Source: Nemertoderma westbladi
Taxonomy: Eukaryota > Animalia > Xenacoelomorpha
Direction: 5' to 3'
DNA length: 64,000 bases
Assembly (NCBI GenBank): GCA_032718475.1
Contig: JAUCBJ010000091.1
Span: 1-64,000, forward strand
Shown here: one piece after another, positions 4,746 through 56,669 of the stretch
Layout: each line of letters opens with the position of its first letter
How positions within the stretch are numbered: the first letter of the stretch is position 1
Program-made: the position numbers and the translations under genes
Notes under the pieces: generated by a model
The model's database searches: none
Told to the model about the DNA's origin: nothing
What the model saw: only the letters and a program-made list of their open reading frames with translations

Positions 4746-5994
4746 TGTAAAAGCCTTTGCTGAATTGCCCCGTTATTTTTATTATCTTTTACATTAAAAT
4801 ACTCTGTAGTTGATTTAATAAGTGTAAGAGACCGTATTATTGCTGTATCGGTGTTTTTAGAGGATCTAAGACCTATTTCCTCCGTATGTGTACTGTGAAA
4901 GGCATATTTTATGAATCTATGGCAATTCGTGACGCAAAGGGGTGATAGCTACTCTTGAACAGTAGTTACTATGACTACGGTTAACAGCTGACATTCATAC
5001 GTGTTGATTTCCTTTGTTCTACGGCGTCTCTCAGTTCAGTCAGCCAATTAGAGCGTTTTTGTGGCTCCTTGTACAGAAAATTTCCGAGAAATGACGCAAT
5101 GCCTATGTGCAGTGTTTACATTCAGTCCTGAGCCAAAGAAAGAACGGCTTGGAAGTATTTTGTGCTTTACTGTTTTTTAGTCTTACACTAGTAGGTTTAA
5201 TTATAAAGGGCATATATCCTTTAACCTAACGACTACCTGACTCATGGAATCACCTGCTAACTGATCATACATACTGACTGCTGAAACATTGCAAACTCAT
5301 AACAATCAGTGTTTTCATTGTTGTTTTATACTGCTATTTACCGTCAGTTCTTCATAATATGGTTGATGAATAATTATATTTGGAATAACGATAAATATCC
5401 CCGAAACCCAATATTCTTGATATACCGAAGGTAAGAGAGAAGGGTTACAGATAAACGATTGTGACTTATGTTAAAGTGGTTTGAAGTGAATCTAATGTTA
5501 TTTGATAGACCCTACATGAGTCAGTCTGTGTTCCTTTTATATGTGACTAAAATCAGTGAAGATTGGCAGATTAGTGTGCAGTATTGTGCAGCATTGTGTA
5601 TGAGTGAGTCTGTTAAAGAAGCAATTCCTAAAGAATGCGCCATATATGTGAATTATAATTAAGCCATATCGTTGTGAGTAGTTTAAGTCATAACTCTGTT
5701 TATATAGATAAAGCGCCACGTCCTAAAGGAACTGTTAATATTACCGAAGGTGAATAATATTGTCAGAGATTATATAGTACTGTCAGTCGAATAATACATT
5801 AGGCTTACATAGCAATAAAATTAAACCGTCGAACCCAATCTCCCGGGAATATCCAGCGGGTGAATGGTCGCGCACGGATTGGTTTCGACTAGTGTAGTGA
5901 ATCAAATACTTGTCATAGACTAAAAACTGATTTAATATCTAGAAGACATCTTAATTTGGTGGGTTAAACTGCCAAAGGTCTGAAAGCGCGAACA
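4746..5994 (+). repeat. 3' LTR of subfamily B copy 1 (1249 bp)
   Basis: TG...CA ends; homologous to 23206-24472; preceded by TCCCATTTTCTGGGAGCGG as in the other 3' LTRs. Confidence 0.93.
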
Positions 5995-6614: not shown

Positions 6615-7160
6615 AGTGTTAGAAGGGTTAGTATAGGGAGAGTGCTAGAGAATAAGTATAGAATATTAGGAGGGTAGGTTAAAAAAGGGGGTGGGGGGGG
6701 GGGGGGGGGTGTGGGGTTGAGGTTGAGGTTGTGTTCTTACCTTACTTCTTATTGGTATTGCCCAAAAACGAGCGGCATATACCAAAAAAAACCCGTAAGA
6801 TTAAAAGTAATTATATATACGATATTATACACTAACTTATTGCTTTACTTCTTATTGGTAGCTTCTTACTGATAGCCAAGATAACAGCAGTAGAGATACC
6901 GGTAGCATAGAAACTAAAATGTACATAAAAAGTCAAAACAAACGGACATAATGAGTGATTTAAACGGACAACAATAGTTATTCTCTTTTAAAATCGACTG
7001 TACTGCTATAGGTTCATTGTATAGTACAGTAGTAGGCCTACAGTAGTACATTGTAGTACCGTCACAGACTGACAGACGCCACAGACGGTATCGGTACCTA
7101 TGTACCTGCTGCAGTGCTGATCTGTGGTTGTGATAAAATTGTACAAAGTGCAAAGTTAAC

Positions 7161-8894
7161 ATGTCCTTTACTAAACTCGACTCAAAAGATCTTCAAAAAG
7201 GGCGCGAGGAGCCCAAGAAACAATCTCGTTTGGAATGGAAACAGCAGAAAGAGTTGGAAGAGGCTCGGAAAGCGGGTACCGCGCCTGCAGAAGTGGACGA
7301 ATTCGGCCACGACATCAACCCACACATCCCCCATTACATAGTCAGCTCGCCGTGGTACCTCCAAGCAAATGGGCCCACATTAGAGCACCAACGTGCTTTC
7401 AAAACCGCACAACGACAGCGACCCACCGCAGTCTCAGAAGAGATAGTAAAAACTGGCTACCTTCCCGGAGGGAGCGCTACTAAATACCGCAAGGGGGCGT
7501 GCGATAACTGCGGCGCGATGACTCACAAAAAGAAAGATTGTCTGGAGCGTCCGAGGAAGGTTGGGGCGCGGTACACCGGTTCGTTTATAATGCCGGACGA
7601 GCGAGTACTTCCGTCGCAATCGTTTACGTTCGATGGGAAACGCGACAGGTGGTGCGGCTACAACGCAGCCGATTACAAGGCCGTCATAGAGGAACACGAG
7701 AAGGTCGAACTCGCTAAGAAACAGCTGAAATCGAAGCAACTCGAGGAAGAGTTGGTGCGAAGTGACGTCACAGTTAGTGATGACGTCGACGACGACAAAT
7801 ACGCCGACCACGCCGATATGCCAGGGCAGAAGTTCGACTCGAAGATTCGGATCACCGTTCGGAACCTGCGGATACGGGAGGACACCGCCAAGTACCTGAG
7901 GAATCTCGGGGATGGTTCGGCGCATTACGACCCCAAGACGCGCGCGATGCGAGAGAACCCGTACGAGGAGAGCGGTAGGGAGAAGGGCGACTTGGATTAC
8001 GCGGGTGATAACTTCGTGCGGTACTCCGGTACTACTCGGCAGATGGGGCGCGCGCAGTTATTCGCGTGGGAGGCGGCCGAGCGGGGCGTCGACGTTCACA
8101 TGGAGGGGGAGCCGACCCGAACCGCAATGGCCTTGCGGGAGTTCGAGGGGAGAGCCGGCCGCGCGGAAGAGGAGCGTAGAGAGCGAATCGTGGGGAAGTA
8201 CGGGGAATTAGGGGTGGAAGGGGAGCGCGGATTGCTGTTGGGACAGACGGAAGAGTACAGGGAGTACAGCAGGAGTGGGGCCGTGATAAAGGGAAGGGAT
8301 GTTGTTAAAGCGAAGTCGCGTTACGAGGAGGACGTTTACGTGAACAATCACAGTTCGGTTTGGGGTTCCTACTGGACAGGGTGTCTGTGGGGCTACCGGT
8401 GTTGCAGGTCGACCGTGAGGAACTCTTACTGCGTGGGGGGCAGTGCTATGGAGCCGGAACTGCCCCCTGGGGGGTTGGGGGAAGGAGGGGGGGTGACTGA
8501 GGAGGGGGGGTCCCAGGGGATAGTAGTCGGGGAGAACGATCCAGGAGGGGACAACACCGAGGATAAACCAAAGTCATTATTGGAACTTCATAAGCAGAAG
8601 TTATTAAACTTAAAAAAACAGAGTAAAAAAAGGAAAGTTAGCGGATCGTCGTCTAGTGATTCAGATTCGCCAAGTTGCAATAAGAAACTCCACAAGGGAG
8701 ACATTGAATCGGCGTTGCTACGACACGACATGGAGACCCGCAGAACGGAGGAGATAATCTCGATGGACGAGAGACAACGTCCATATAACTCTATGTACGA
8801 AACCCACCAACCCACACAGGCAGAACTCGAAGTGTTTCGGTTGAAGAGACACCAAAAGGAGGATCCTATGTTTAAATTATTAGATAATAAATAA
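7161..8894 (+). CDS. SLU7: Pre-mRNA splicing factor SLU7 (intronless)
   Basis: Motifs ELEEARKAGTAPAEVDE..INPHIP, KGACDNCGAMTHKKKDCLERPRK, VRNLRIREDTAKYL, SRYEEDVYVNNHSSVWGSYW. Confidence 0.97.
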   Translation: MSFTKLDSKDLQKGREEPKKQSRLEWKQQKELEEARKAGTAPAEVDEFGHDINPHIPHYIVSSPWYLQANGPTLEHQRAFKTAQRQRPTAVSEEIVKTGYLPGGSATKYRKGACDNCGAMTHKKKDCLERPRKVGARYTGSFIMPDERVLPSQSFTFDGKRDRWCGYNAADYKAVIEEHEKVELAKKQLKSKQLEEELVRSDVTVSDDVDDDKYADHADMPGQKFDSKIRITVRNLRIREDTAKYLRNLGDGSAHYDPKTRAMRENPYEESGREKGDLDYAGDNFVRYSGTTRQMGRAQLFAWEAAERGVDVHMEGEPTRTAMALREFEGRAGRAEEERRERIVGKYGELGVEGERGLLLGQTEEYREYSRSGAVIKGRDVVKAKSRYEEDVYVNNHSSVWGSYWTGCLWGYRCCRSTVRNSYCVGGSAMEPELPPGGLGEGGGVTEEGGSQGIVVGENDPGGDNTEDKPKSLLELHKQKLLNLKKQSKKRKVSGSSSSDSDSPSCNKKLHKGDIESALLRHDMETRRTEEIISMDERQRPYNSMYETHQPTQAELEVFRLKRHQKEDPMFKLLDNK

Positions 8895-9766
8895 AATCAT
8901 TGTTTATATGTTTTAACAACCATGAGATTGTATAAATTATTAAATAATTCAAACAGGACTTAGGATTCAATCCCCGCTGGTGGCGAATTCATTTTTTCCG
9001 CTCCATTTGCTATAGAGTTGGATCATCATTGTTTAATGTTTGTTTATATAACTTTGGGGGGAATATAATAATTATTAGATATCCAACAGTAAAGTTTACA
9101 AATTCTATACTATTAATTATAAATTTTATTCTATAATTTTAATTCTTAATTTGAAATTCTACAATCGAGGTTTTCAAATGAAACATATGTCATATTTGCA
9201 CTTCATTGTTCACTTTTATTTCTATTCCAACTACGCTTTAAGGGTATTCTTAATTCCAAAACTCGTGATATTGAGTATTATATTTATTTCTAATAGGATT
9301 AAAATTATTTAAAATACACTATACGTCATAGGCCTACTCAACTAAATAAATATACATATATATTTTTCTTTTTTTTCTATTTTTTATGTCTTGATGGTTG
9401 CTATGCATTGATTCACTTAGCATTAAACGCGTAATCTAATAATATCCTCAATTTTTTAACATAAGTAAATCTGAGCATACCTAACCTAACCGTAATCCTA
9501 AATAGACCTGAGCTAATTACGACAGAAACATCGCATATAAGTAATTAAACTATCTCTAGTTTGCTTGCAGGTTTTATCAAAACTAAAAGAGCCAATATGA
9601 GTAACTCAGTACTTTACTACGATTATTTTTACTAGAGCCCCTTGGAGCTGAACCTAAAATTGGTTAATATCTATTTATTAAATGGGAAACAATATAGATC
9701 GCGAAATTAGAGAAATAAGCTATTCATTTTTCAAATAATGGGCCTACCTAATTTTATTTCAGAAGA

Positions 9767-12171
9767 TTGCCTTTTCCACCTCCCCCTATTGCTTTCCCCA
9801 CCTCCCCCCTATTGCCTTTTCCACCCCCCCCCCCCCCCCCCCATTGCCTTTTCCACCTCCCCTATTGCATTTTCCACCCCCCCCCCCCTCCCCTATTGTA
9901 GGGATACCAAGAACTCGCCCCACTATGTGGCTCGCCCCAGCAGTGTAGTCATACCATGGATTCGCCTTACTACGTGGCTCGCCCCAGAACACAGACATTA
10001 CTTTCAGACATTAATCCGCTCAGTACTGTAGCACGTAGCCTACTTATGCACCTTGTCTGCATGATACCAGTACAGCACTGCAGTCTCTTGGTATTATATG
10101 TAGCACTGGTCGGTCAGATCTATTTCGGCATTTCCGCTCATCCCGCCCGGTCCCCTCATATCGCATATCCTTACACCTATTGCCTTTTCCACCTCCCCCC
10201 TATTGCCTTTTCCACCTCCCCTATTGCCTTTTCCACTCCCCCTATTGCCTTTTCCACCTCCCCCTTTTGCCTTTTCCACCTCCCCCCTATTGCCTTTCCA
10301 CCTCCCCCTATTGCCTTTTCCACCTCCGCCTATTGCCTTTTCCACCTCCCCTATTGCCTTTCCCACCTCCCCCATTGCCTTTTCCACTTACCCTATTGCC
10401 TTTTCCACCTCCCCCTATTGCATTTTCCCCCTCCCCCTATTGCCTTTTCCCCCTCCCCCTATTGCCTTTTCCACCTCCCCTATTGCCTTTTCCTCCTCCC
10501 CCTATTGCCTTTTCCACCTCCCCCTATTGCCTTTTCCACCTCCCCCTATTGCCTTTTCCACCTCCCCCTTTTGCCTTTTCCACCTCCCCCTTTTGCCTTT
10601 TCCACCTCCCCCCTATTGCCTTTCCACCTCCCCCTATTGCCTTTTCCACCTCCGCCTATTGCCTTTTCCACCTCCCCTATTGCCTTTTCCACCTACCCTA
10701 TTGCCTTTTCCACCTCCCCCTATTGCCTTTTCCACCTCCCCCTATTGCCTTTTCCACCACCCCCCTATTGCCTTTCCACCTCCCCGTATTGCCTTTTCCA
10801 CCTCCCCGCATTGCCTTTTCCACCTCCCCCTATTGCCTTTTCCACCTCCCCCATTGCCTTTTCCACCTCCCCTATTGCCTTTTCCACCCACCCTATTGCC
10901 TTTTCCACCTCCCCCTATTGCCTTTTCCACCTCCCCCTATTGCCTTTTCCACCTCCCCCCCCCTATTGCCTTTCCACCTCCCCGTATTGCCTTTTCCACC
11001 TCCCCGCATTGCCTTTTCCACCTACCCTATTGCCTTTTCCACCTCCCCCTATTGCCTTTTCCACCTGCCCTATTGCCTTTTCCACCTCCCCCTATTGCCT
11101 TTTCCACCTCCCCCTATTGCCTTTTCCACCTCCCCCTATTGCCTTTTCCACCTCCCCCTATTGCCTTTTCCACCTCCCCCTATTGCCTTTTCCACCTCCC
11201 CCCTATTGCCTTTCCACCTCCCCGTATTGCCTTTTCCACCTCCCCGCATTGCCTTTTCCACCTCCCCCTATTGCCTTTTCCACCTCCCCCTATTGCCCTT
11301 TCCACCTCCCCCTATTGCCCTTTCCACCTCCCCCTATTGCCTTTTCCACCTCCCTCTATTGCCTTTTCCACCTCCCCCATTGCCTTTTCCACTTCCCCTA
11401 TTGCCTTTTCCACCTACCCTATTGCCTTTTCAACCTCCCCCTATTGCCTTTTCCACCTCCCCCTATTGCCTTTTCCACCTCCCCCCTATTGCCTTTCCAC
11501 CTCCCCGTATTGCCTTTTCCACCTCCCCGCATTGCCTTTTCCACCTCCCCCTATTGCCTTTTCCACCTCCCCCTATTGCCCTTTCCACCTCCCCCTATTG
11601 CCTTTTCCACCTACCCTATTGCCTTTTCCACCCCCCCCCCCCCCCCCCTATTGCCTTTTCCACCTACCCTATTGCCTTTTCCACCTCCCCCTATTGCCTT
11701 TTCCACCTCCCCCTATTGCCTTTTCCACCTCCCCCTATTGCCTTTTCCCACCTCCCCCCTATTGCCTTTCCACCTCCCCGTATTGCCTTTTCCACCTCCC
11801 CGCATTGCCTTTTCCACCTCCCCCTATTGCCTTTTCCACCTCCCCCTATTGCCCTTTCCACCTCCCCCTATTGCCCTTTCCACCTCCCCCTATTGCCTTT
11901 TCCACCTCCCTCTATTGCCTTTTCCACCTCCCCCTATTGCCTTTTCCACCTCCCCCTATTGCCTTTTCCACCTCCCCCCTATTGCCTTTCCACCTCCCCG
12001 TATTGCCTTTTCCACCTCCCCGCATTGCCTTTTCCACCTCCCCCTATTGCCTTTTCCACCTCCCCCTATTGCCCTTTCCACCTCCCCCTATTGCCTTTTC
12101 CACCTCCCCCTATTGCCTTTTCCACCTCCCCCTATTGCCTTTCCACCTCCCCGTATTGCCTTTTCCACCTC
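9767..12171. repeat. C/T-rich minisatellite, about 22-bp unit TATTGCCTTTTCCACCTCCCCC
   Basis: Directly visible tandem array with variable C-run length and recurring variants (CCCGTATT, CCCGCATT). Confidence 0.97.
9897..10175. mobile_element. Solo LTR (279 bp) of an unrelated LTR element inserted in the minisatellite
   Basis: Ends TGTAGGGATA...TATCCTTACA (inverted, 1 mismatch), flanked by the 5-bp duplication CCTAT (9892-9896, 10176-10180). Confidence 0.8.
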
Positions 12172-12890
12172 ACTTTGCTCACCTTAAATATTGTACCAAA
12201 CAGCAGTGGTAAGATTCCGGGGTAACCATGTGTATTCATATAAACTTTGATTTTAGAAGGTTTGTAGTACCGGTAGACGTTGGCATTTCTGATGTACAGT
12301 ATAATACAGGGGTGGGATGCCCGATATACGATGCCCAAATACCAGAAATTAAACGAAATACTGTTACAATTATAATTATACTATGACTTGGTATATAATA
12401 TTCTCATATTGGCTTCCGACACACACTCACACTGACACCTACACGGACAGACTTGGAAAACGGCCATAGTATAATAATTTATTTAACTGACGACATGCCA
12501 ACTTTAGGGCGTTCATATTTACTTAATTGGATAATGGTAAATAGCCTGATTTGTTTTATACAGGGTACCTAGCAACGCCAACTGCCAACAGCTGGATTAA
12601 ATAGCAGTTGCCCTTAAAACAACTAGAGTCACTATTTCGGAAGCCCTTAAAACAACTAGAGGCACTATCCGGTAACACAGGGCCAGTGACCGAACAAACA
12701 AGCAGCAGTTAAATTGACTAACACTGTGGGGCAAGCCACGAAAGTGAGCGTGCTTAGAATACGGGTACCAATCTCAACCTCTCGTCTGTCTAACGTCTGC
12801 CTGTCGTTGGTTAGTCGCTCCGTCTACTCTTTGAATGCTAGTACAGTACAGTAACTCAGCGAATCTTTGATGGAATTATACCAAACGTAG

Positions 12891-14067
12891 TGTAAAAGCT
12901 TTTGCGTAATTAACCGGTTATTTTCCCGTAAAGTACTCTGTAGTTGGTTTACCAGGCATAAAAAGGCCGTGTCCTTACTGTACTGGTGTTTTAGAGGACA
13001 TAAAAGTCATTTCTTCTGTATTTGTACTTTAGAGGACATAATCCGCAATCTCGTGACGCAATAAGCTAGATACTCTTGAAAACAGTGTCGCTACCATGAC
13101 GACGGCTAACAGCTGATATTGCCACGTCGACATTTCTTTGTTTCTTTGTTCTCTCGTTGTTCGGTCGACCAATCAGAGCGTTTTTTGTCTCTGTGTTGGA
13201 GGTGGATACAGAAACTCAGTAGTTCAGTGTTATGTTTTTGCCCAGAGCCTAAGAACACCGGCTTTTGGCACCTCCGTGTTTCAGTCTTTAGCTTAACATT
13301 AGTAGGCTTAATTATAGAGTGTATATCTGTTATCATACCAAAACTCAGTTATCTCAGTTAATAATCATAACATATCAAAACAAACCGCATCATTCATACC
13401 TTAACTTTACTGCTTTTACTGTCGGTTATTCATTATATTTGTTGATGAAATATTATATCGGAATACTGATCAATAGTCAGACACCCAACCTTCTTGATAT
13501 ACTAAAGGTTAGAGAGACCGGTTACAGATAAACGATTGCGACCTATGTTAAGTGGTTTGAAGTGAATCTAATGCTATTTCATAGGCCCGACATAAATTGT
13601 ATGTTGCTCTCTTTATACGTGACCAAATTTAGTGAAGGTCGGCAGATTAGTGTGCAGTATTGTGCAGCATTGTGTATGATTGTAACTGATAACAAAGCAT
13701 CTCCTAAAGAATGCGCCATATACATAACTCTATAGCCTTTTTGTTGTGTCTAGTTTAAGTCATAACTCTGTTTACATATTTAGAGCGCCACGTCCTAAAG
13801 GAACTGTTAATATTTCCCGAAAGTGAATAATATTTGTCAGAGATTATATATTACGATCAGTCGAATAATACGGTAGGCTTACACCATCAATCATTAAGCT
13901 TCCGAATTCAGTCTCCCGGGTATATCCAGCGGGTGAATGATTGCGCATAGACTGGCTTCGGCTAATGTAGTGTATCAAATACTCGTCATAGGCTAAAGAC
14001 TATATATCATCTAAAAGACATCCTAATTTGGCAGGTTAAACTGTCAAAGGTCTTAAAAGCGCAAACA
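12891..14067 (+). repeat. 5' LTR of element A
   Basis: TGTAAAAGC...GCGCAAACA; direct repeat of 42986-44162. Confidence 0.97.
13167..13178 (+). promoter_or_regulatory. CCAAT box in LTR U3
   Basis: GACCAATCAGAG in A; AGCCAATGAGAG at the homologous position in B. Confidence 0.55.
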
Positions 14068-14105
14068 ATAACAGATATTGCTTCTGGATTGCGGCGTAAG
14101 CAATC
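13283..14105 (+). ncRNA. Large structured cis-RNA in LTR R/U5 plus PBS (putative self-priming module, possible ribozyme)
   Basis: Many helices with compensatory changes between the A and B LTRs (see findings). Confidence 0.75.
14068..14078 (+). promoter_or_regulatory. Non-tRNA primer-binding site complementary to LTR 13323-13333
   Basis: ATAACAGATAT directly abuts the LTR end; its exact reverse complement ATATCTGTTAT is at 13323-13333; no TGG tRNA-type PBS. Confidence 0.85.
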
Positions 14106-14356
14106 AAGTCTAAAGTACCGGTACCGGTCGAACGGTAACCTGTACTGCTGTAACCAGTAGGCCTGACTGCCTGATCATCCGAACCGGTACTTACAGTACA
14201 GGTACAGCAGTATTATTCGATTGTGGTATTGTATACCGGTAGGCTGTTTAAGAGATTAGGGACTGTACACCCCTTGTTTCTTTTGGGAGCTTACTTATTT
14301 CTGTCAGTTTTATTTATTTGTAGGCCAGTATTGAGCAGAAGGCGTGTAAGCCTGCT

Positions 14357-14934
14357 CAGATTGTACAGATAATTTGTAGGCTTGACTGTTGGCTAACTGT
14401 TGTTAAGTCTGAACAGATTGCAGTGTGTGTAGAGCATCTGTCCGATAAAGTGCTAGTTAGGAAAGTAGGGGCTTCAAGTGCTGTGAGGTAAACCCCCTGT
14501 GAAAGAATAAGTCGTACTACTGGGTTAGAATGCATACTAACTAATCATTTCGGAGTCTGCATATACTGTAGTGTATTTGGGCTTGATAGTAGTCTGCCAT
14601 CGTTTGGTCTGTACTTTGTTTGTGTAGTCTGTACGGGTAGCGTATAATTTTATTTAGATAATTTGTAGGCTGGATAGTTGTTTGGCTGTTGTTGGGTTTG
14701 AGGAAATTTCGGTGTGTGTAGAGCATCTGTCCGATAAAGTGCTAAGTTAGGAAAGTAGGGGCTTCAAGTGCTGTGAGGTAAACCCCCTGTGAAAGAATAA
14801 GTCGTACTACTGGGTTAGAACGCATACTAACTAATCATTTCGGAGTCTGCATATACCGTAGTTTGTTTAGGCTTGATAGTAGTCTGTCAGTATTTGGTCT
14901 GCATTTTGTTTGAATAGTCTGTACGCGTAGCGTA
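14357..14934 (+). repeat. Two tandem copies (period about 289 bp) of a structured 5' leader module
   Basis: Direct repeat 14367-14644 / 14656-14934; also duplicated in B at 24740-25301. Confidence 0.85.
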
Positions 14935-16282
14935 ATATTTATTATTCAGAGTTTATGCGATTATTCGCAACATTCATTCCCCAAGTTTATTCCTACAGTA
15001 ATTGTGTTTGTTATACATACCGTTATAGTTAAACTAACCCCGGTACTACATCAGGGCTGCTCGGCGTAGGTAAAGACTGGAGATTTTATGCTTTGGTCAC
15101 TCCGGCAGATACCGTGGTTCTTTTAGCTGTTCAAGTATTTTTAACTACCGATTATTTGTTGTACAAGTACTTGTACCTAATTTAGGGTTTAGTGTACAGT
15201 ACTTTCCGAAGGTGATTAGTGTGTAGGCAGTGTATTTGTGTTGTAAAGTGGTTAATAGGCACGTTGGTTCTGGTAGACCGCGGTAATTAATCTCTAGGTA
15301 GGAACACTCCGTGATACATAACGTAGTACCTATAGCGATACGGTTATAGGTCGTCAGGCGGTGGTATTTTCCTATCTGGACAACGCAGTATATTTACTAC
15401 TACTTATTATTTTCAAATACCGTAGTAACCTGTCCGTTGTAATAACCAGATATTCTAACCCTTTGTTAGGCTGGTTAGTAGACTTCTTGTAAAAATACCC
15501 TAAAAAATTTGTATTTGTGTATTTGTAATTAAATTTTTGTGTTTATTTAGAGATTGTAATCTCTACCCGAATTGTACGTAACTTGTAGTATTAAGTAACT
15601 TAGGTAAATTAGAATTATTTGTTTTAGTGTCTAACAAGTAGCACTCCACTGAGAGCGCACAGCTTATGTGTAGTGACTCCCCCAGAAATAATAACATTTA
15701 TTTCAAACATTGACAAAAACCCATTTCAACGGGTATATATATATTATAAATCAACTCAAACGATTTATAAATAGTAGGCCTGCCATACAACAATTAGGTC
15801 TCAATATCAGTTGGACTACTGCTTAAATAACAGTAATAAAGTAAGTTAAAGTAACCAAGTAACCCTTAAAATTCAGAAATTCAATTATTTAAAATAATTG
15901 ATATACCGGTATTTACAATAGGCTTACTATCTTTATTTTTATAAATATAGGCTGAAATTATACCGGTATTCTGTAATTAATTCTAGTCTGTAATTGTACT
16001 TGTATTTTCACATTATAAGTGTAAGCTGTATACCGGTATTCAAGATAGGCCTATTATATATATAAACTTAGGCTGAAATAATACCGGTATTCTGCAATTA
16101 ATTCTAGTTACTAATAATACTTATATATACTATAAGCATACCGGTATTCTAATATTATATATATATCACGCTACACTGAGTAGCAGTATCGGTAATTAAT
16201 TACTAGGTTAGCAGTTAATGCTGAATTACTAGACTTGCTTAGACTGTAATATAGCAGTAGGCATTCAACTGTGTAAACAAAC

Positions 16283-19857: not shown

Positions 19858-22800
19858 GCACTCACGTATGAAAAGGATACGGACAGCGACCTTACCCTAG
19901 CTACTTCTGATCAACAACCATTTTGGAAAGCGCCAACTTCCAATGTAGGGATTAGAGAATTTCCTGTGGTACAGGTAAGGGTCCACGGACCAAAAAGGAA
20001 TTATGTAGTGAACGCCCTCCTTGACTCCGGTAGTACAGGAACATTCATCGACAAAGAGCTAGCCGAAGACATATTTGCTGGACAACCCAAGTTCCGAACT
20101 AAGCTAAACATGTCAGGAATTATGCAGGTTTGGAAATCTACAGTAACAGCGGATTATTATGTAGGTGCGTTGTCCACCCCCCAGGATGAACTAGGAGAAC
20201 ATAGCATAAGGTCAGTGAAAATGGTGGCTATAAAGAACTTCGCTACTACTCAAGCAGACCTTTATAATTGGGACGAGGATGAGAGCATCCAACATCTTAA
20301 GATACCTCGATTCCAGACTGATTATCCTGGAGTGCAAATACTCATCGGCCAAAACGCGCATGAGGCGCTCGAGACACTGGAGAAACGGCCTGCTCAACCG
20401 CAGCCACTACAAACCTATGCGGTAAGAACTAGAGTAGGTTGGTACTTTACTGGCCCTTCCCGTAGAACTCTCATGGAAAGATTACCGAAAGATCAGGTAT
20501 ATCAAGTGCGAGAATGGGAAGTTGAGAACAGTGAGTTCGACGATCCAACTGAGGGAACTCCATACTCCTCAGACAACGACGATATACATCAACTTTTCGA
20601 TGAGGAGAATGCCATCGATCTCCTTAAGGAAAGCGAGACTTGGCAAAATCAAGTGAACTTATGTCAACTCCTTCTCCCATCCGAGCGAGACGACTATAAC
20701 GACGAGCTTAATGACGTCATTGAACGTTATAATGCCAAGACTCGGGATGAACACGCCGTAAGATTCTTTACTCAAGAGGTTGTAGAGCCCAACTCCTACG
20801 ATAAGGCCCTATCGGTGGAGGAAGAAAGAGCCAAGCAGATCCAAGCGACAACTACTCGTTTTCTTAAAGATCAAGGTAGATATGAGATCGGTCTTCCTTT
20901 CCGAAAGCGAGAACCAAAGTTCATTAACAACAGACCTTTGGCGGAGAAAAGAATTGCTCAACTACATCGACGCCTTACGGCAAATTCTTCAGCTAAAGAA
21001 ATGTATCAAACGCAGTTGAAGAAGTTTATTAGTAAGGGATATGCGGAGCTAGTACCGGAAGAAACACCTATAACTGAGAGAACGTATTATTTAACTCACC
21101 ATTACGTTCCCAAACCCGGTAAACCCCATGAAGTACGAGTGGTGTTTGACGGTTCCGCCCTTTATATGGGCCAATCTCTTAATTCTGAATTGTTACCCGG
21201 ACCCAACTTACTAGAATCCTTGTTCGGAATACTATTAAGATTAAGACAATATTCCATTGCTTTCGCCTCAGATATAGAAGGCATGTTCTTACAAGTCAAA
21301 GCGCTGGATAGGGATCGAGATAGCCTACGATTTTTGTGGTGGCCTGAAGGAGACCTCAACAAGAAACCGGTGGAGTACTGGATGACCATCCAAGCCTTTG
21401 GGATAATCTCGAGCCCTTCAAACGCCTGTTCCGTGGTGCGCACCACTGCGGATGACAACCGAGACGCCTTCTCTAAAGAGGTGATCGACAATATCAAACG
21501 AAACATCTACATGGACGATAATCTGAAGTCCCTTCCATCAGTCGAAGAAGCCACTGCGGTCGCTGAAGGAACGGTAGAATGCTTAAAGAAAGGTGGATTT
21601 CGATTAACTAAATTCACTAGCAACTCCCGTGAGTTTCTGGAGTCGATCCCGGTAGAAGATCGAGGAGCAAAAGACCTAGATCTAATAAAGGATGATCTCC
21701 CAGAAACTAAGACCCTTGGTTTGAAATGGGACACAGAAAGAGATATCCTGTTTTTCCAATTAAAACAGCGAGATAATCCAGTTCGGACTAAACGGATTTG
21801 TTTAAGTATCCTGAGCACTTATTTCGATCCATTGGGATTTATTAGCCCAGTTATATTGATTGCTCGGAGTTTAGTACAACAAATGTGGCTTGAAAACCAC
21901 TCATGGGACGATCCACTTAAGGGAGAATTATTAAAGAAGTGGATGAAATGGGAAGATTCTCTACCAGCCATCGAAAACTTTATAATTTCCCGTTCATATT
22001 TTGGTCATGTTCTCCCTACGTATTCATATCAACTCCATGTGTTTGGAGACGCCAGCGATATGGGAATAGGTATAGTAGCCTACCTAAGGGTGGAAACTCC
22101 GGACGGAATCAAAGTCGCCTTGATTACCTCTAAGGCATTGATAAACAACAAGTTGAAGGTTCCTCGAGCGGAGTTAAAAGCGGCTCTATACGCTACAGCC
22201 ATCGGCCGGAATGTAACAGAACAGATCGACTATCCCCTGGAGAAAACTGTCTATTGGACCGACGCTTTACTCGTGTTGGAGTATATAACCAATGAAGTCT
22301 GTCAGTTCAGCGTCTTCGTTACCAACAGAGTAGCTATTATACTCAGTCGCACGACGATGGATCAATGGAGACATTGCCCCGGAACGATTAATCCAGCGGA
22401 CATCGCTTCCAGGGGAGCAACTCCACAAGAACTGGTAGATACTCCAGACTGGTTAGGTGGACCCGACTTCCTCTACAAAGAAGAAGAAGAATGGCCTCCT
22501 CATCTTACTACAGCAGAAATTAGACAGGCCAAGGGAGCGGAGAAAGTCAAGCCTAAAACTCAGGCGAGTAAATCGAAGTTATTCAAACCCACAGTAGATC
22601 TGTCTGTCCTACATACTTCCGGAGACGACGCTTTGGATCAGAAACCCACAGCCACAAATAAACCCGTTGTGGAAATCCGTGATAAGGATTGGAAATCTGG
22701 CATACCAGACGTCTCGCAAGGACTCTCACCTCTTCTGCAGAGAGCGATACATCACTACAGTTCCTGGAATCGGCTCTGTAAGGCCGTTACATATTTAAAG

Positions 22801-23205
22801 AGATGTTTTCACCATCACTACTCTGGGATGAAAACAAAGGGTGATACCGCTCCAATCACATCAGTGCAGGTCCATGTTATTAAAGATCTTCCCAAACATA
22901 AGATACCCGACAGGTTTCTGAAGGAGAAGATCAGTTATCAGGAGCATGAAGAAACCAACAAACAGATGCTGAGACTCTTACAATGCTATGAAGATTCCGA
23001 TAAGTATTTCCTGTTGTTGAGAAATCCACAGATGCGCTTAAGGGATCGTTTCTCTAGCACAAGGATAGATGGGTTGATACGTGTTGGAGGAAGGTTAACG
23101 AATGCCCCATTATCCTTTGATACTAAGTTCCCCATACTCATTAGAAATCTTGAAATACAAGTCAAGATGATTGTAGATGTTCACAGCAAACTTTATCATG
23201 CTGGT
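19858..23205 (+). CDS. Pol of element A: protease, reverse transcriptase, RNase H, start of integrase (interrupted by nested element)
   Basis: ALLDSGS; VRVVFDGS, SLNSELLPGPNL, DIEGMFLQV, YMDD; FDPLG, FGDAS, VPRAEL, WTD, NPADIASRG. Confidence 0.95.
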
Positions 23206-24472
23206 TGTAAAAGCCTTTGCTGAATTGCCCCGTTATTTTTATTATCTTTTACATTAAAATACTCTGTAGTTGATTTAATAAGTGTAAGAGACCGTATTAT
23301 TGCTGTATCGGTGTTTTTAGAGGATCTAAGACCTATTTCCTCCGTATGTGTACTGTGAAAGGCATATTTTATGATTCTATGGCAATTCGTGATGCAAAAG
23401 GGTGATAGCTACTCTTGAACAGTAGTTACTATGACTACGGTTAACAGCTGACATTCATACGTGTTGATTTCCTTTGTTCTACGGCGTCTCTCAGTTCAGT
23501 CAGCCAATGAGAGCGTTTTTGTGGCTCCTTGTACAGAAAATTTCCGAGAAATGACGCAATGCCTATGTGCAGTGTTTACATTCAGTCTTGAGCCAAATAA
23601 AGAACGGCTTGGAAGTATTTTTTGTGCTGTACTGCTTTTTAGTCGTACACTAGTAGGTTTAATTATAAAGGGCATATATCCTTTAACTGTAAATATCTCA
23701 CTGCTGCAATTTAACATACCTAACGAATACTGCTGACTGATGATCATACATGCTGACTGCTGAAACATTGCAAACTCATAACAATCAGTGTTCAGTAGTT
23801 ATTTTATACTGCTATTTACCGTCAGTTCTTCATAATATGGTTGATGAATTATTATATTTGGAATAACGATAAACAACCCCGAAACCCAATGTTCTTGATA
23901 TACCGAAGGTAAGAGAGAAGGGTTACAGATAAACGATTGTGACTTATGTTAAAGTGGTTTGAAGTGAATCTAATGTTATTTGATAGACCCTACATGAGTC
24001 AGCCTGTGTTCCTTTTATATGTGACTAAAATCAGTGAAGACTGGCAGATTAGTGTGCAGTATTGTGCAGCATTGTGTATGAGTGAGTCTGTTAAAGAAGC
24101 ATTCCTAAAGAATGCGCCATATATGTGAATTATAATTAAGCCATATCGTTGTGAGTAGTTTAAGTCATAACTCTGTTTATATAGATAAAGCGCCATGTCC
24201 TAAAGGAACTGTTAATATTACCGAAGGTGAATAATATTGTCAGAGATTATATAGTACTGTCAGTCGAATAATACATTAGGCTTACATAGCAATAAAAATT
24301 AAACCGTCGAACCCAATCTCCCGGGAATATCCAGCGGGTGAATGGTCGCGCACGGATTGGTTTCGACTAGTGTAGTGAATCAAATACTTGTCATAGACTA
24401 AAAGCAGATTTAATATCTAGAAGACATCTTAATTTGGTGGGTTAAACTGCCAAAGGTCTGAAAGCGCGAACA
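23206..24472 (+). repeat. 5' LTR of B copy 2 (1267 bp)
   Basis: TGTAAAAGCC...GCGCGAACA; matches 4746-5994 and 34402-35048. Confidence 0.95.
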
Positions 24473-24484
24473 TTAAAGGATATA
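24473..24484 (+). promoter_or_regulatory. Non-tRNA primer-binding site complementary to LTR 23675-23686
   Basis: TTAAAGGATATA versus TATATCCTTTAA, 12/12 complementary. Confidence 0.85.
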
Positions 24485-26627
24485 GCTTCTTTATTGCAGT
24501 AAGCAATAAAGTCGAAAGTACCGGTCGACCGGTAACCAGTAGGCCTGACTGCCTGATCATCCGGACCGGTACCTACAGCAGTATTATTCGATTTTGATTG
24601 TTATATACCAGTAGGCCTTAATAATTAATCAGGGACGGCCGCCCTGATTTTTTATTGAGATTTTACTTATTTCTGTCAAGATTTATTTGTTTGTAGGCCA
24701 GTATTGAACAGAAGGCGTGTAAACCTGATCAGATTGTACAGACAATTTGTAGGCTGAGCTGTTGTCTGATTGCTGTTAAGTCCGAACGAATTGCAGTGTG
24801 TGTAGAGCACTTGTCCGATTAAGTACGGTTAGGAAGTAGGGGCAGCCACGCTGTAAGGTAAACCCCCGACTAAAGAATAAGTCGCACTACTGGGTTAGAG
24901 CGCATACTCCCTAATCATTTCGGAGTCTGCATATACCGTAGTTTATTTAGGCTTGAGAGTAGTCTGCCATCGTTTAGTCTGTACTTTGTTTGTGTAAGTC
25001 TGTACGGGTAGCGTATAATTTTATTTAAATAATTTGTAGGCTGGATAGTTGTCTGGCTGTTATTAAGTCTGAACGGATTGCCGCGTGTGTAGATCATCTG
25101 TCCGATTAAGTACGATTAGGCAGTAGGGGCAGCAACGCTGTAAGGTAAACCCCCAACTAAAGAATAAGTCGCACTACTGGGTTAGAGCGCATACTCCCTA
25201 ATCATTTCGGAGTCTGCATATACCGTAGTTTGTTTAGGCTTGATAGTAGTCTGTCAGTGTTCGGTCTGTATTTTGTTTGAGTAGTTTGTACGCGTAGCGT
25301 AATATTTATTATTCAGAGTTTATGCGATTATTCGCAACATTCAAGTCCCTAAGTTTGTTCCTACAGTAATTGTGTTTGTTATACATACCGTTATAGTTAA
25401 ATTAACCCCGGTACTACACGGGCTGCTCGGCGTAGGTAAAGACTGGTGATTTTGTGCATCGGTCACTCCAGCAGATGCCGTGGTTCTTTTAGCTGTTCAA
25501 GTATATTTAATTACTGATTATCTGTTATACAAGTACTCGTACCTAATTTAGGGTTTAGTGTATGGTACTTTCCGAAGTAATCATTGTAGGCATTATATTT
25601 GTGTTGTAAAGTGGTTGATAGGCACATTCGATTAGCTCTATTAACTTCTAGGTAGGAACACTCCGTGATACATAACGTAGAACCTATAGCGATACGGCTA
25701 TAGGTCGTCAGGAGGTGGTATTTTCCTATCTAGACAACGCAGTGTATTTACTACTACTTATTATTTCAAATACCGTAGTACCCTGTCCGCTGTAATAACC
25801 GGTTTTCTAACCCTTTGTTAGGCTGGTTTGTAGACTTCTTGTAAAATTACCCTAAAAATTCGTATTTGTGTTTTTGTAAGATTTTGTGTTTATTTAGAGA
25901 TTGTAATCTCAACCCAAATTGTACGTAATTTGTAGTATTAAGTAACTTAGGTAAATTAGTATTATTTGTTTTAGTGTCCTGTACGTAACACTTCACTGAA
26001 AGCGCACCGCTTTGTGTAGTGATTACCCCCAGAAATAATAACATTTATTTCAAACATTGACAAAACCCATTAAAACGGGTATATATATATTATAAATCAA
26101 ATCTAACGATTTATAAATCGTAGGCCTACCATACAACCATTAGGCCTCAATATCAGTTGGATTACTGCTCAAATAACGGTAATAAAGTAAGTAAAGTAAC
26201 CAAGTAACCCTAAAGTAACAGAAATTCAATTATTTGAAATAATTGATATACCGGTATTTACGATAGGCCTATTATCTTTATTTCTATAAATCTAGGCTGA
26301 AATTATACCGGTACTTGTAATTAATTCTATTTCAGAATTATATATCCTACAAACTGTAAGCTGTATACCGGTATTCAGATAGGCCTATTATATATTTATA
26401 TATATTTGTGCTAAAATTATACCGGTATTCTGTGATAAACCTAGTCTGTAATAATACTTATATAGTTATATATACTATAAGTATACCGGTATTCTAATAT
26501 ATTATATATATCACGCTATACTGAGTAGCAGTACCGGTAATTAATTACTAGACTAGCAGGTAATACTGAGTTACTAGACTTACTCAGACTGTAATACAGC
26601 AGTAGACATTCAACGGTATACATAGTC

Positions 26628-34401: not shown

Positions 34402-35048
34402 TGTAAAAGCCTTTGCTGAATTGCCCCGTTATTTTTATTATCTTTTACATTAAAATACTCTGTAGTTGATTTAATAAGTGTAAGAGACCGTATTATTGCT
34501 GTATCGGTGTTTTTAGAGGATCTAAGACCTATTTCCTCCGTATGTGTACTGTGAAAGGCATATTTTATGATTCTATGGCAATTCGTGATGCAAAAGGGTG
34601 ATAGCTACTCTTGAACAGTAGTTACTATGACTACGGTTAACAGCTGACATTCATACGTGTTGATTTCCTTTGTTCTACGGCGTCTCTCAGTTCAGTCAGC
34701 CAATGAGAGCGTTTTTGTGGCTCCTTGTACAGAAAATTTCCGAGAAATGACGCAATGCCTATGTGCAGTGTTTACATTCAGTCTTGAGCCAAAGAAAGAA
34801 CGGCTTGGAAGTATTTTTTGTGCTGTACTGCTTTTTAGTCGTACACTAGTAGGTTTAATTATAAAGGGCATATATCCTTTAACTGTAAATATCTCACTGC
34901 TGCAATTTAACATACCTAACGACTACTGCTGACTGATGATCATACATGCTGACTGCTGAAACATTGCAAACTCATAACAATCAGTGTTCAGTAGTTATTT
35001 TATACTGCTATTTACCGTCAGTTCTTCATAATATGGTTGATGAATTAT
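34402..35048 (+). repeat. Truncated 3' LTR of B copy 2
   Basis: Matches the first 647 bp of 23206-24472, then switches to A pol sequence. Confidence 0.93.
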
Positions 35049-37008
35049 GGTAGATACTCCAGACTGGTTAGGTGGACCCGACTTCCTCTACAAAGAAGAA
35101 GAAGAATGGCCTCCTCATCTTACTACAGCAGAAATTAGACAGGCCAAGGGAGCGGAGAAAGTCAAGCCTAAAACTCAGGCGAGTAAATCGAAGTTATTCA
35201 AACCCACAGTAGATCTGTCTGTCCTACATACTTCCGGAGACGACGCTTTGGATCAGAAACCCACAGCCACAAATAAACCCGTTGTGGAAATCCGTGATAA
35301 GGATTGGAAATCTGGCATACCAGACGTCTCGCAAGGACTCTCACCTCTTCTGCAGAGAGCGATACATCACTACAGTTCCTGGAATCGGCTCTGTAAGGCC
35401 GTTACATATTTAAAGAGATGTTTTCACCATCACTACTCTGGGATGAAAACAAAGGGTGATACCGCTCCAATCACATCAGTGCAGGTCCATGTTATTAAAG
35501 ATCTTCCCAAACATAAGATACCCGACAGGTTTCTGAAGGAGAAGATCAGTTATCAGGAGCATGAAGAAACCAACAAACAGATGCTGAGACTCTTACAATG
35601 CTATGAAGATTCCGATAAGTATTTCCTGTTGTTGAGAAATCCACAGATGCGCTTAAGGGATCGTTTCTCTAGCACAAGGATAGATGGGTTGATACGTGTT
35701 GGAGGAAGGTTAACGAATGCCCCATTATCCTTTGATACTAAGTTCCCCATACTCATTAGAAATCTTGAAATACAAGTCAAGATGATTGTAGATGTTCACA
35801 GCAAACTTTATCATGCTGGTAGAGAACGAGTTCTTAGCGAAATTCGAACTCGCTATTATTTTTATAAACCCCGTAGAGCTCTGAACCAAGTTCTTAGGAA
35901 CTGTATACCCTGTAGGAAAGCATTCAGTAGGCCTTTAACACAGAGAGAGGCAAAATTACCTAGGGAACGAGTAAGCTTTTATGAACCACCCTTTACTAAT
36001 ACCGGTGTGGATTTATTTGGCCCTATTGAAGTATATCGTGCTAGGACTATAGTCAAGAGATGGTGTGTAATCTTTGTTTGTATGACTTGTAGAGCCATCC
36101 ATCTCGATATGGTGAACGATTTATCTACCAACAGCTTTCTATTAAGCTTACGACGACAGATCGCTTGCTTTGGCACTAGTAACACGATGAGATCTGATAA
36201 GGGAACAAACTTCATTGGTGCCAACAATGAAATCAAAGCTTACGTCAAAGATTGGAACCAAAGACAGGTGGACGACCAACTACGAGTAACAGCGTCTAGT
36301 TGGACCTTCAACGCCGCCGACGCCCCTTGGTGGGGAGGAAGTTGGGAGAGATTAATAAGAAGTGTGAAGACAGCATTTCATTTTATAGTGCCTTGCCGCG
36401 CTTATCTCACCGACGAACTTTTGCGGACGTTAATGGAAGAAATCGCCGCCTATCTCAACGAGAGACCGCTTATGCCAGTCTCATCGAGTCCCGATTCCCT
36501 GGAAGCGCTAACACCCGCGCACTTCCTACTGAAGAAACCTGTAGCCATGCTCCCACAATCGGAAATCACAGATGGAGACAAATACTGCCGACAAACTTGG
36601 CAACTCATGCAGTTGTTATCCCGTCGTTTCACTGACCATTTCGAAAAACATTATCTGCCCACGCTACAACTTCGAACTAAGTGGTTTGCGCAGCAAGAAA
36701 ACGTCAGCGCTGGAGACATGGTTCTTATTGTGGATGTAGATCTTCCACGTAAGCAGTGGCAGACAGGTCGTATAATCGAGACCCACATCTCGGATGACGG
36801 TTTGGTGCGATCGGTAGAACTCGTCGTCATGCGACGTAACTTCAAGAAACCGGGAATTGTCTTCGAGACGCAGCAGCTCAATCGCCCAGTTGGTCGCTTA
36901 TGTTTACTGGAAAGAGACAGAGAACTCTCCGGAAACTATGGGAGACAAGATACTCTTCCCACGACCACCTCCCTAATCCAACAAACATCTAGGGACTCCC
37001 CAACTTAA
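35047..37008 (+). CDS. Integrase of element A (with duplicated RH-IN linker)
   Basis: HSKLYH..CIPC zinc finger, GVDLFGP, SDKGTNF, WWGGSWER DDE core, LTPAHFL. Confidence 0.95.
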   Translation: MVDTPDWLGGPDFLYKEEEEWPPHLTTAEIRQAKGAEKVKPKTQASKSKLFKPTVDLSVLHTSGDDALDQKPTATNKPVVEIRDKDWKSGIPDVSQGLSPLLQRAIHHYSSWNRLCKAVTYLKRCFHHHYSGMKTKGDTAPITSVQVHVIKDLPKHKIPDRFLKEKISYQEHEETNKQMLRLLQCYEDSDKYFLLLRNPQMRLRDRFSSTRIDGLIRVGGRLTNAPLSFDTKFPILIRNLEIQVKMIVDVHSKLYHAGRERVLSEIRTRYYFYKPRRALNQVLRNCIPCRKAFSRPLTQREAKLPRERVSFYEPPFTNTGVDLFGPIEVYRARTIVKRWCVIFVCMTCRAIHLDMVNDLSTNSFLLSLRRQIACFGTSNTMRSDKGTNFIGANNEIKAYVKDWNQRQVDDQLRVTASSWTFNAADAPWWGGSWERLIRSVKTAFHFIVPCRAYLTDELLRTLMEEIAAYLNERPLMPVSSSPDSLEALTPAHFLLKKPVAMLPQSEITDGDKYCRQTWQLMQLLSRRFTDHFEKHYLPTLQLRTKWFAQQENVSAGDMVLIVDVDLPRKQWQTGRIIETHISDDGLVRSVELVVMRRNFKKPGIVFETQQLNRPVGRLCLLERDRELSGNYGRQDTLPTTTSLIQQTSRDSPT

Positions 37009-41600: not shown

Positions 41601-42907
41601 AGTCAGTTCAAAGACCACGCTCTGACCAAACTCAGCCTGAGAGACTCAGCGGCGGAGAAGCTAAACAGCGCGGGATTTGCCCTTTTTCAGGACATTTGTA
41701 TACAGAACTTACATTCATCTGTTATACAAAGACCCCGAATACCCACGGGTTATTCTGTCGTCGAAGTTCAGACAGTGGGTCCTCTTGCGGAGACAGCCGC
41801 ACCTACCTCAGCTATGCAATTGGAAGACGAACCAATATGCTTAGAAGCTGAAGCGATTCAACCTACAGCGCCCCGGAGCAGCGATAACGACTACGTCTTA
41901 GAGTGGTATCAAGGTCCACAATGTCTCACTGCATACGATTATCGACACGCTAACTATGTTTCTCGAAAACGTTGTCGATTATGCGCATTGAGAGACCATT
42001 TCACCCCTATGGACTCAGACGTACCCTGCTCCTATTTCCACGAACAACCGATGATGGAGATATATTGTGCGTATTGCAGACTTAATAACTCTCATATTTT
42101 TGCAGTCTGCCCCCAATTTATGACTCAATGCCACCACTGTCAACTTAAAGGACATGCCAGTTATAATTGCCCCTTTAATCACGATTTAGAGAGCGTAGAT
42201 GAAATGATTACCCTGCGCTACATCCGAGCTTGGGAAGCGAACGCGGATTTACATTGTGAGTCCCGTCATCGATACTACCCTGGACGCTCTTACGAGGGAG
42301 TTTACGCGTTCCATCCTTATTTATTAGCGTCTGTGGAACAAAAAACACGCATACCGAGTTACGAGCTAATGAAGCGTGTTGGTGAGTGTATTTCCACCAA
42401 ATTTGTTCGAAGATATCTTAGGAACGTCAACCCGATCCTAACGATATTACTTCATACCATTTGATCAATTATATCCGTCAAGACCCTGAGTATGGTGATT
42501 TATTTATCAACTCGCACCCTGAGTTACAGGAAGTATCTCGACGGCCCTACGAATATCGAGCCCGAGAACGCGAGCTGGAAAGAACTATTAAACCAAGGAA
42601 GTTTCTCACCACTCACGGTCCACCTACCGCCGTTGTCCAGACGACCCGTCAAGGACCAGTAGGAGCTGCTGTCCTAAGACGCGCCTTAAAGGCCGTTAGA
42701 CCTCGCTCCGCTGAAGTTGATATCGATCAACCAGGTACCTCGACCGGCGGATACACCGATCGCAATCCGAAACCTTCTGATGCAATTGTATTGCACCCTT
42801 CACCCAGGAGTTACAGCCCTCCTAGTAAAGTGGCTCGCCCCAAAGAGAAATGGACTCTTGCTAGCCTCAAAAAACTGCGTAAACGCCGTCCGCGTAAGAA
42901 AGACTAA
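38649..42907 (+). CDS. Accessory protein: DEDD-like (WRN/EXD/Mut-7-type) 3'-5' exonuclease domain plus CCHC zinc fingers and basic tail; probable 1-nt frameshift near 42420
   Basis: VVTYDNEG (ExoI), LFNEGILKIGSAVYGD (ExoII), FVDTQ, SIGHLA, LAIYTIFE (ExoIII-like); CAYCRLNNSHIFAVC and CHHCQLKGHASYNC. ORF 42461..42907 is open in the -1 frame from 42422. Confidence 0.72.
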
Positions 42908-45510: not shown

Positions 45511-45995
45511 AATAGGTGGAAATTTGCCTCATAGACAGATAGGCCTACTGCATTACCTACCGGTAGGCGGGGTATAGCTATTAATAACCAGTAGGGCCTA
45601 TATCTATGAACATGGCTCCAAACGCCACCATAAATGTAAACTCTTTGGTATGATCAACCTGGAAGATTTCCTACACCTTAAAACTTGCGTTATTTACCTA
45701 CAGCATCTTAAATAGTCCCAATAGAAAGGTTCTTTTTTTCTTTCATCATTTAATCTGTCTGCACCTTGCAGATTTGTCTTGTGCTTAGATATTCTTCCGT
45801 TATGGTGTCTCCGCATGGCACCTCGGTTTACCACGTTTGTCTTCTCTGAGTGTCTCCAGATACAGTTTCAAGGTCATACGGAATCGACATGGAAAATCTC
45901 AAGCCACCGAACTGAGTCCTGCTAGTCAGTATAAACTCTAATTTTATGGTACCATACTGAGTGGCACCACTGGCTCACATTGAGCTCGCCACTTA

Positions 45996-56617: not shown

Positions 56618-56669
56618 TTTGACAAGGTTATTGATAAGTAATTACTATTCTTACTGCTGTCTGGCTGTA

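What the first reader, a model, noticed from the sequence alone, without database searches (positions are those of the whole stretch)
13941..14067. Covarying pseudoknot that grips the LTR 3' terminus next to the priming site
Seen: loop TTGCGC (13941-13946) complements GCGCAA (14059-14064), 3 nt before the LTR end. In B both change: TCGCGC (24346-24351) with GCGCGA (24464-24469). Inference: two adjacent guide pairings (this one and primer:PBS) bracket the first template bases. This recalls EBS/IBS recognition in group II introns or a template-positioning element, and could gate initiation of reverse transcription.
Basis: partly seen in the sequence, partly recalled or inferred. Interest (0 to 1): 0.7.

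Follow-up and report, generated by a model that had tools for sequence, protein, structure and literature searches.

The report
Retrotransposon RNA knot beside self-priming site
In two subfamilies of an animal BEL/Pao jumping gene, a six-letter stretch three bases from the end of the terminal repeat keeps its match to a partner 120 bases upstream through one paired change; it likely folds into an RNA knot beside what is predicted to be a self-made primer and would help set up the start of reverse transcription, like the known yeast Tf1 structure but in a group where my searches found no such report.

Summary
TTGCGC (13941-46) and GCGCAA (14059-64) are complementary, end 3 nt before the LTR end (14067), and both change in subfamily B. 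That is one compensatory pair in two sequences. Such a helix anywhere in U5 is common by chance (P about 0.6), but anchored at the LTR end it is not (P about 0.02). The element is a BEL/Pao retrotransposon whose PBS is complementary to an 11-mer inside its LTR, with 3 compensatory changes, as in Tf1 self-priming. Pseudoknot topology is favoured, not proven. The enclosing 12-bp helix P1 (13902-14/13949-61) beat 150 of 150 shuffles, while the extra helices of the rival nested fold are at chance level; energies tie. The group II EBS/IBS analogy is not supported for this helix; the real analogues are the Tf1 'pretzel' flanking duplex and the Ty1 pseudoknot. New here: a third site (13688-94) pairs with primer bases 6-12 with 3 compensatory changes (0 of 600 shuffles). 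A TATA-like box lies only 10-12 nt upstream of the primer, so the transcription start is uncertain. Covariation across further subfamilies could not be tested.

The parts
12891..14067 (+). 5' LTR of BEL/Pao element type A (TG...CA); 3' LTR 42986-44162; 5-bp target-site duplication CGTAG
   Evidence: Pfam DUF1759, Peptidase_A17, DUF5641 in internal ORFs
13313..13319 (+). TATA-like box in a block conserved between A and B, only 10 nt (B: 12 nt) upstream of the putative self-primer
   Evidence: sequence
13323..13333 (+). putative 11-nt self-primer, complementary to the PBS (B: 23676-23686)
   Evidence: (11 WC pairs, 3 compensatory)
13688..13694 (+). second partner of primer bases 6-12 (13328-13334), spanning the presumed 11|12 cut; B: 24090-24096
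   Evidence: (7 WC pairs, 3 compensatory; 0 of 600 shuffles)
13902..13914 (+). P1 5' strand (12 bp with one pyrimidine mismatch)
13915..13933 (+). invariant CCCG/CGGG hairpin stacked on P1 (present in both folds)
13941..13946 (+). 5' hexamer of the finding, in the 15-nt bulge closed by P1 (B: 24346-24351)
13949..13961 (+). P1 3' strand
14027..14048 (+). 8-bp hairpin with GUUAAA loop, three one-sided changes that keep pairing
14059..14064 (+). 3' hexamer of the finding, template positions 4-9 for minus-strand synthesis (B: 24464-24469)
14068..14078 (+). PBS directly after the LTR, not starting with TGG (B: 24473-24483)
14087..14105 (+). hairpin just downstream of the PBS, one compensatory change
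23206..24472 (+). 5' LTR of type B element nested in A; further B LTRs at 4746-5994 and, truncated, 34402-35048

Best explanation
The hexamer pair is likely a real RNA helix, predicted to close a pseudoknot at the end of U5 in a BEL/Pao retrotransposon that likely primes reverse transcription with its own RNA, and it would serve as the template-side arm of a Tf1-'pretzel'-like initiation structure. Shown: complementarity kept in two subfamilies, position 3 nt from the LTR end, an LTR-internal 11-mer complementary to the PBS. Inferred: P1 forms first and displays the hexamer in a 15-nt bulge; the last bases of U5 dock on it; the self-primer anneals to the PBS next door; RNase H frees the primer 3' end as in Tf1; RT copies ACA and must then open the 6-bp G-C-rich helix. 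The helix would hold the PBS open and set the geometry or a pause of initiation. It is not a guide of the group II kind.
For: Helix is in the lowest-energy fold of A and B: P 0.89-0.91 (A, 3 local windows) and 0.70-0.95 (B, 4 windows). Positions -9..-4 are paired more than in shuffled U5: 1 of 30 and 0 of 30 shuffles reached it. LTR-end-anchored null P about 0.02. P1: 12 pairs, 2 compensatory and 2 one-sided changes, none broken; 0 of 150 shuffles held such a helix, while nested-only helices were at chance level, 7 vs 7.8 and 49 vs 58.5. With the hexamers barred, P1 has P 0.93-0.96 in A and about 0.5 in B. In contigs of public runs C at 13908 is far commoner than G at 13940 in 3 of 4 runs (81/43%, 95/38%, 80/4%; 98/95% in the fourth), which breaks a pair of the nested fold but not P1. 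Primer:PBS: 11 WC pairs, 3 compensatory. Tf1 needs flanking duplexes next to the PBS (passages); a Ty1 5' pseudoknot is needed for reverse transcription (passages).
Against: Only one compensatory event in two sequences; the pair-shuffle control is uninformative (63 of 500). In the full A fold (13323-14110) the helix falls to P 0.03. Nested and pseudoknot models tie: 4 vs 3 compensatory pairs of 40; -45.1 vs -41 to -45 kcal/mol in A and -49.4 vs -46 to -50 in B, with an assumed knot penalty of 7-11. RNAalifold, which cannot draw pseudoknots, gives the nested fold. Thresholds were set after the fact. Depths are unphased contig sums, not copy numbers. None of 13 LTR ends from 11 distant BEL/Pao loci had more end pairing than its shuffles (best 8 of 30). 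The TATA-like box is 10-12 nt from the primer, shorter than the roughly 30 nt usual in animals (recalled), so the primer may not be the RNA 5' end. No functional data.
Confidence: 0.45

Rival explanations
1. The helix is real but nested: it closes a 120-nt U5 stem-loop domain next to the PBS, an ordinary U5-IR-type stem with the same likely role in initiation. The RNA may also switch between the two folds.
For: It is the minimum-energy and RNAalifold structure for A and B; 4 compensatory and 5 one-sided pairs of 40, none broken. A distant BEL/Pao locus with a self-complementary PBS (L054) folds a nested 6-bp helix ending 4 nt before its LTR end in both LTR copies.
Against: Its three extra compensatory pairs lie in short or isolated helices that occur at chance rate; it leaves P1's two compensatory pairs unexplained; pair 13908-13940 appears broken in much of the population. 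The L054 helix was not above its own null (8 and 11 of 30).
Confidence: 0.25
2. The knot is real but belongs to a large U5 domain used for packaging, dimerisation, Gag binding or translation; its place beside the PBS is incidental.
For: R-U5 is about 735 nt with many conserved hairpins and A-rich loops; the Ty1 pseudoknot region is tied to Gag binding and packaging as well.
Against: The helix ends exactly 3 nt from the first template base; in Ty1, pseudoknot mutants lost reverse transcription rather than packaging.
Confidence: 0.15
3. The match is chance: two transitions on one lineage that happen to fit, in a GC-alternating motif constrained by the integrase attachment site.
For: A 6-bp helix with one compensatory pair arises somewhere in U5 in about 60% of shuffles; a single event; no third phased haplotype seen.
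Against: Anchored and G-C-rich nulls are 0.5-2.5%; it is the dominant predicted pairing in both types; neighbouring helices also keep pairing through their changes.
Confidence: 0.15

Closest known systems
Tf1/sushi self-priming 'pretzel' (three-duplex 5' UTR structure; U5-IR-like stem)
   Same: 11-nt LTR-internal sequence complementary to a PBS directly after the LTR; a second duplex formed by PBS-adjacent U5 sequence with LTR sequence downstream of the primer (bioRxiv 10.1101/2022.12.06.519325, passages; PMC7175516, passages).
   Different: Host element is BEL/Pao, not a chromovirus; primer and PBS are about 735 nt apart; the flanking duplex is probably a pseudoknot; no covarying downstream-side duplex to the LTR was found; a second primer partner exists; primer at the RNA 5' end not shown.
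Ty1 5'-terminal long-range pseudoknot
   Same: Pseudoknot in the 5' region of an LTR-retrotransposon RNA needed for reverse transcription (PMC3681743, passages).
   Different: Ty1 is tRNA-primed copia. That its knot uses the RNA's first bases rather than the U5 end is recalled. No homology shown.
Retroviral U5-IR stem (RSV)
   Same: U5 helix next to the PBS tied to initiation (titles in reference lists only; papers not held).
   Different: tRNA-primed; a short local stem-loop (recalled).
Group II intron EBS/IBS pairing
   Same: Short covarying 6-7 bp pairings. The third site 13688-94 covers 6 nt before and 1 nt after the presumed cut, like EBS1 plus delta (geometry recalled).
   Different: No Rfam match; no domain V or GUGYG start seen by eye; the finding's helix does not flank a cut.

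Membership tests
BEL/Pao LTR retrotransposon | LTRs TG...CA with target-site duplication | tested here: met
   LTRs 12891-14067 and 42986-44162, TSD CGTAG
BEL/Pao LTR retrotransposon | BEL-type gag-pol domains | tested here: met
   DUF1759, Peptidase_A17, DUF5641, Integrase_H2C2; relatives at about 32-42% identity carry PF05380
Tf1-type self-priming structure | PBS 0-5 nt after the LTR complementary to at least 10 nt of the LTR | tested here: met
   11 bp (A), 12 bp (B), offset 0, 3 compensatory changes; criterion as in PMC6317226
Tf1-type self-priming structure | primer is the 5' end of the transcript | not testable with these tools
   no raw RNA reads; TATA-like box only 10-12 nt upstream raises doubt
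Tf1-type self-priming structure | duplex on the U5 side of the PBS | tested here: met
   13941-46/14059-64, by prediction and one compensatory pair
Tf1-type self-priming structure | duplex on the leader side of the PBS with LTR sequence | tested here: inconclusive
   only 5-bp candidates at chance level; a local hairpin 14087-14105 is predicted instead
Tf1-type self-priming structure | [quoted passage not shown] | not testable with these tools
   needs RNA or cDNA ends
Tf1/sushi chromovirus group | gypsy-type pol with chromodomain integrase | tested here: not met
   Pfam gives BEL/Pao domains and no chromodomain
RNA pseudoknot | hexamer lies inside a closed helix (P1) while its partner lies outside | tested here: inconclusive
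   P1 favoured; ties
Group II intron ribozyme | domain V and six-domain core | tested here: not met
   no Rfam hit at E<=10 for group II models in either LTR, none at gathering score in the window
tmRNA | tRNA-like domain and conserved tag frame | tested here: not met
   ARAGORN 0 genes; Rfam E 0.13 and 0.59, far below gathering; tag-like frame with stop in A only

The most novel reading that the evidence does not exclude
The 735-nt R-U5 of this BEL/Pao family is a folded priming machine. A guide (13688-94) grips the self-primer across its cut site and hands it to the PBS, while the terminal pseudoknot clamps the template 3 nt ahead. Because the TATA-like box is too close, the primer may be made from the RNA's 3' copy, by RNA-catalysed cutting or by trimming with the element's own 3'-5' exonuclease-like ORF3, giving a circular, tRNA-free start of reverse transcription.
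Probability: 0.08. Interest if true: 0.88.

Novelty: new variant of a known kind. Interest (0 to 1): 0.52.

Why it matters
Self-priming is described for Tf1/sushi/Tcn1 gypsy elements and proposed for TAR copia elements; my searches listed no BEL/Pao case. A third superfamily with tRNA-free priming and its own PBS-flanking structure would show that the same RNA architecture evolved again. It would also give a compact natural RNA in which to see how a helix 3 nt ahead of the primer shapes initiation. The second primer-binding site is a specific, testable addition to the Tf1 model.

Tried and rejected
More copies: no own genome is held. Pattern scans found 0 loci in metagenome contigs, genome contigs and viral contigs; a shorter pattern gave 15 viral loci, all chance, with no match beyond 21 nt. 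A protein scan of viral contigs found nothing. 79 metagenome BEL/Pao loci share no LTR sequence with the window (blastn, nhmmer). No RNA holder was listed, which says nothing about expression. In one search position 14063 was not among the 40 rows shown (134 hidden) and no listed piece spans both hexamers, so the decisive covariation test stays open. tmRNA likeness (tag-like frame after the helix) is rejected as coincidence. Group I/II cores and hammerhead motifs were looked for by Rfam and by eye; none is shared by A and B. A blind scan for self-complementary PBS after ACA/ATA in 45 loci showed no enrichment (10 vs 10.3 expected). The quick tree (78 of 82 rows; L049, L076 and both B pol pieces dropped for short hits) puts the window pol on a long branch, and self-PBS loci do not cluster (227 of 500 shuffles as low). 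The single-sequence fold of the ORF3 domain was unusable (pLDDT 31); no homologs among shorter proteins; the profile-library search was busy and not run. Earlier-findings look-ups were empty. Lin and Levin 1998, Levin 1996, Miller 1997 and the Tf1 review were not held.

Full report
Context. The window comes from an animal genome. An intronless SLU7 ORF is about 43-57% identical to many animal groups, so the host is divergent and was left unidentified. It holds nested BEL/Pao LTR retrotransposons: DUF1759, Peptidase_A17, DUF5641 and integrase zinc finger. Type A runs 12891-44162 with TG...CA LTRs 99.7% alike and a CGTAG target duplication. Type B LTRs lie at 4746-5994, 23206-24472 and, truncated, 34402-35048. 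U5 of A and B is 81-85% identical, no higher than the leader, so conservation alone says little. The closest pol proteins are only about 40% identical and the window pol is a long branch.

Observation. The four hexamers are as stated and ACA separates the helix from the PBS. The covariation is one U-A/C-G event between two sequence types. In 600 column shuffles a 6-bp Watson-Crick window with a compensatory pair appeared anywhere in 63%, at the LTR end in 2.5%, and with four or more G-C pairs in 0.5% (57%, 1.8%, 1% with ends fixed). The criteria are post hoc. Folding predicts the helix at P 0.89-0.91 in three local A windows and 0.70-0.95 in four B windows, but 0.03 in the full A R-U5-PBS fold. 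Pairing of positions -9 to -4 exceeded 29 of 30 (A) and 30 of 30 (B) shuffled U5s. I put the odds that the helix is real at about 0.8.

Priming site. The 11 bases after the LTR do not begin with TGG and are perfectly complementary to 13323-13333; in B, 12 bases match 23675-23686; three pairs change on both sides. This meets the criterion used to predict self-priming (PMC6317226, passages) and matches Tf1, whose first 11 bases pair with the PBS and are cut off by RNase H (PMC7175516, passages). Against it: a conserved TATA-like box lies only 10-12 nt upstream of the 11-mer, and LTR A has no AATAAA. The RNA ends are unknown.

Pseudoknot or nested stem. Fold 1: P1 pairs 13902-14 with 13949-61 (12 pairs, one pyrimidine mismatch that swaps between A and B), stacks on the CCCG/CGGG hairpin and leaves a 15-nt bulge holding the hexamer, which then pairs outside as a knot. 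Fold 2, the pseudoknot-free optimum: the hexamer helix closes a 120-nt domain. Pair counts tie (3 vs 4 compensatory, 5 one-sided each, of 40), and so do energies for an assumed penalty of 7-11 kcal/mol. Two things favour fold 1. P1-like helices appeared in 0 of 150 shuffles, whereas fold 2's extra helices are at chance level (7 vs 7.8; 49 vs 58.5). In public-run contigs, C13908 is much commoner than G13940 in 3 of 4 runs (81/43%, 95/38%, 80/4%; 98/95% in the fourth), which breaks a fold 2 pair but suits P1. Those depths are unphased contig sums. I put the knot at about 0.6 given a real helix; a switch between the folds is possible.

Population test. The family is very abundant in the runs laid. 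C13942 holds 90%, 89%, 100% and 74% of depth, so the A-type U-A pair is the minority form. Searches of metagenome, genome and viral collections gave no further copies.

A second primer partner. 13688-13694 is complementary to 13328-13334 (primer bases 6-11 plus base 12) and changes at three positions in step with the primer in B. Apart from the primer:PBS duplex it is the only 7-bp window with three compensatory pairs, and none arose in 600 shuffles under either null. It competes with the PBS and is weaker (-5.5 vs -10.6 kcal/mol in A). It could hold the primer until the PBS is made, or present the 11|12 junction for cutting. This is better supported by covariation than the finding's own helix.

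Mechanism. Shown: complementarities, positions, compensatory changes. Inferred: P1 folds first and displays the hexamer; the U5 end docks on it; the primer moves from 13688-94 to the PBS; cleavage frees its 3' end; RT copies ACA and then has to melt six mostly G-C pairs. The helix would keep the PBS accessible and set the geometry or timing of initiation.

Comparison. It works like the Tf1 'pretzel', in which two duplexes join PBS-adjacent sequence to LTR sequence downstream of the self-primer (bioRxiv 10.1101/2022.12.06.519325, passages, figure not seen), and recalls the Ty1 pseudoknot whose loss impairs reverse transcription (PMC3681743, passages). The U5-IR papers were seen only as titles. 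It is not a Tf1/sushi member (BEL/Pao domains), and no group II intron, tmRNA or other Rfam family matches. Among 13 LTR-PBS junctions of distant BEL/Pao loci, 3 (L013, L054, L072) have a 9-11 bp self-complement, but a blind scan of 45 loci showed no enrichment, they do not cluster with the window element, and none of 13 LTR ends had end pairing above its null. Literature searches (listings, plus passages of PMC3601003, PMC4600332 and PMC13524379) gave no self-priming BEL/Pao element. The library lacks most subscription journals and Repbase reports, and I read no supplements; element tables there could already note such a PBS.

Verdict. A probably real, probably knotted U5-terminal helix that is a new variant of a known PBS-flanking structure, resting on a single compensatory change. 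The self-priming BEL/Pao context and the second primer partner carry much of the interest. Interest 0.52.

Noticed in passing
window 38649-42464: Third ORF (1271 aa) between pol and the 3' LTR of A. No Pfam hit. Atlas points to a 3'-5' exonuclease (DNA_pol_A_exo1; 0.88 whole, 0.92 for residues 700-970, shared features under 170) plus a CCHC knuckle. Lead only; the third acidic motif looks altered. DEDDy ORF3s are known in rotifer LTR elements (PMC5408684, passages).
   Followed up: partly
window 13688-13694 and 24090-24096: Second covarying partner of the self-primer, spanning the presumed cut site.
   Followed up: yes
window 13300-13322 and 23651-23675: Conserved block with a TATA-like box only 10-12 nt before the primer; no AATAAA in LTR A.
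   Followed up: partly
L013:105, L054:326, L072:911, L036:374: Distant BEL/Pao loci whose PBS is complementary to their own LTR region (9-11 bp); L072 ends in a 6-bp hairpin abutting the PBS; L054 has a 6-bp helix ending 4 nt before the LTR end.
   Followed up: partly
L055:405, L060:55, L069:2772: TGG-starting, tRNA-like PBS (identities recalled, not tested) at 2, 5 and about 11 nt from the LTR end.
   Followed up: no
window 22433-23205 and 35048-35820: 773-bp exact duplication flanking the nested B element, whose 3' LTR is cut at 647 bp; recombination or an assembly artefact.
   Followed up: no
window 7137-8894, 49454-50449, 53903-56641: Intronless SLU7, XRCC4 and PWI/CCCH/RRM (RBM26-like) ORFs among the elements; retrocopies or an intron-poor host.
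   Followed up: partly
window 14367-14950 and 24744-25317: About 290-bp tandem duplication in the leader of both types, rich in a repeated GTAGGC motif.
   Followed up: no
window 14061-14099: A tmRNA-tag-like reading frame ending Ala-Ala-stop in A only; judged coincidence.
   Followed up: yes
window 9766-12200; 45984-48734; 59534-60831: 22-bp satellite array; LINE-type endonuclease and RT fragments; a 45-bp inverted-repeat pair 1.2 kb apart, like a MITE.
   Followed up: no
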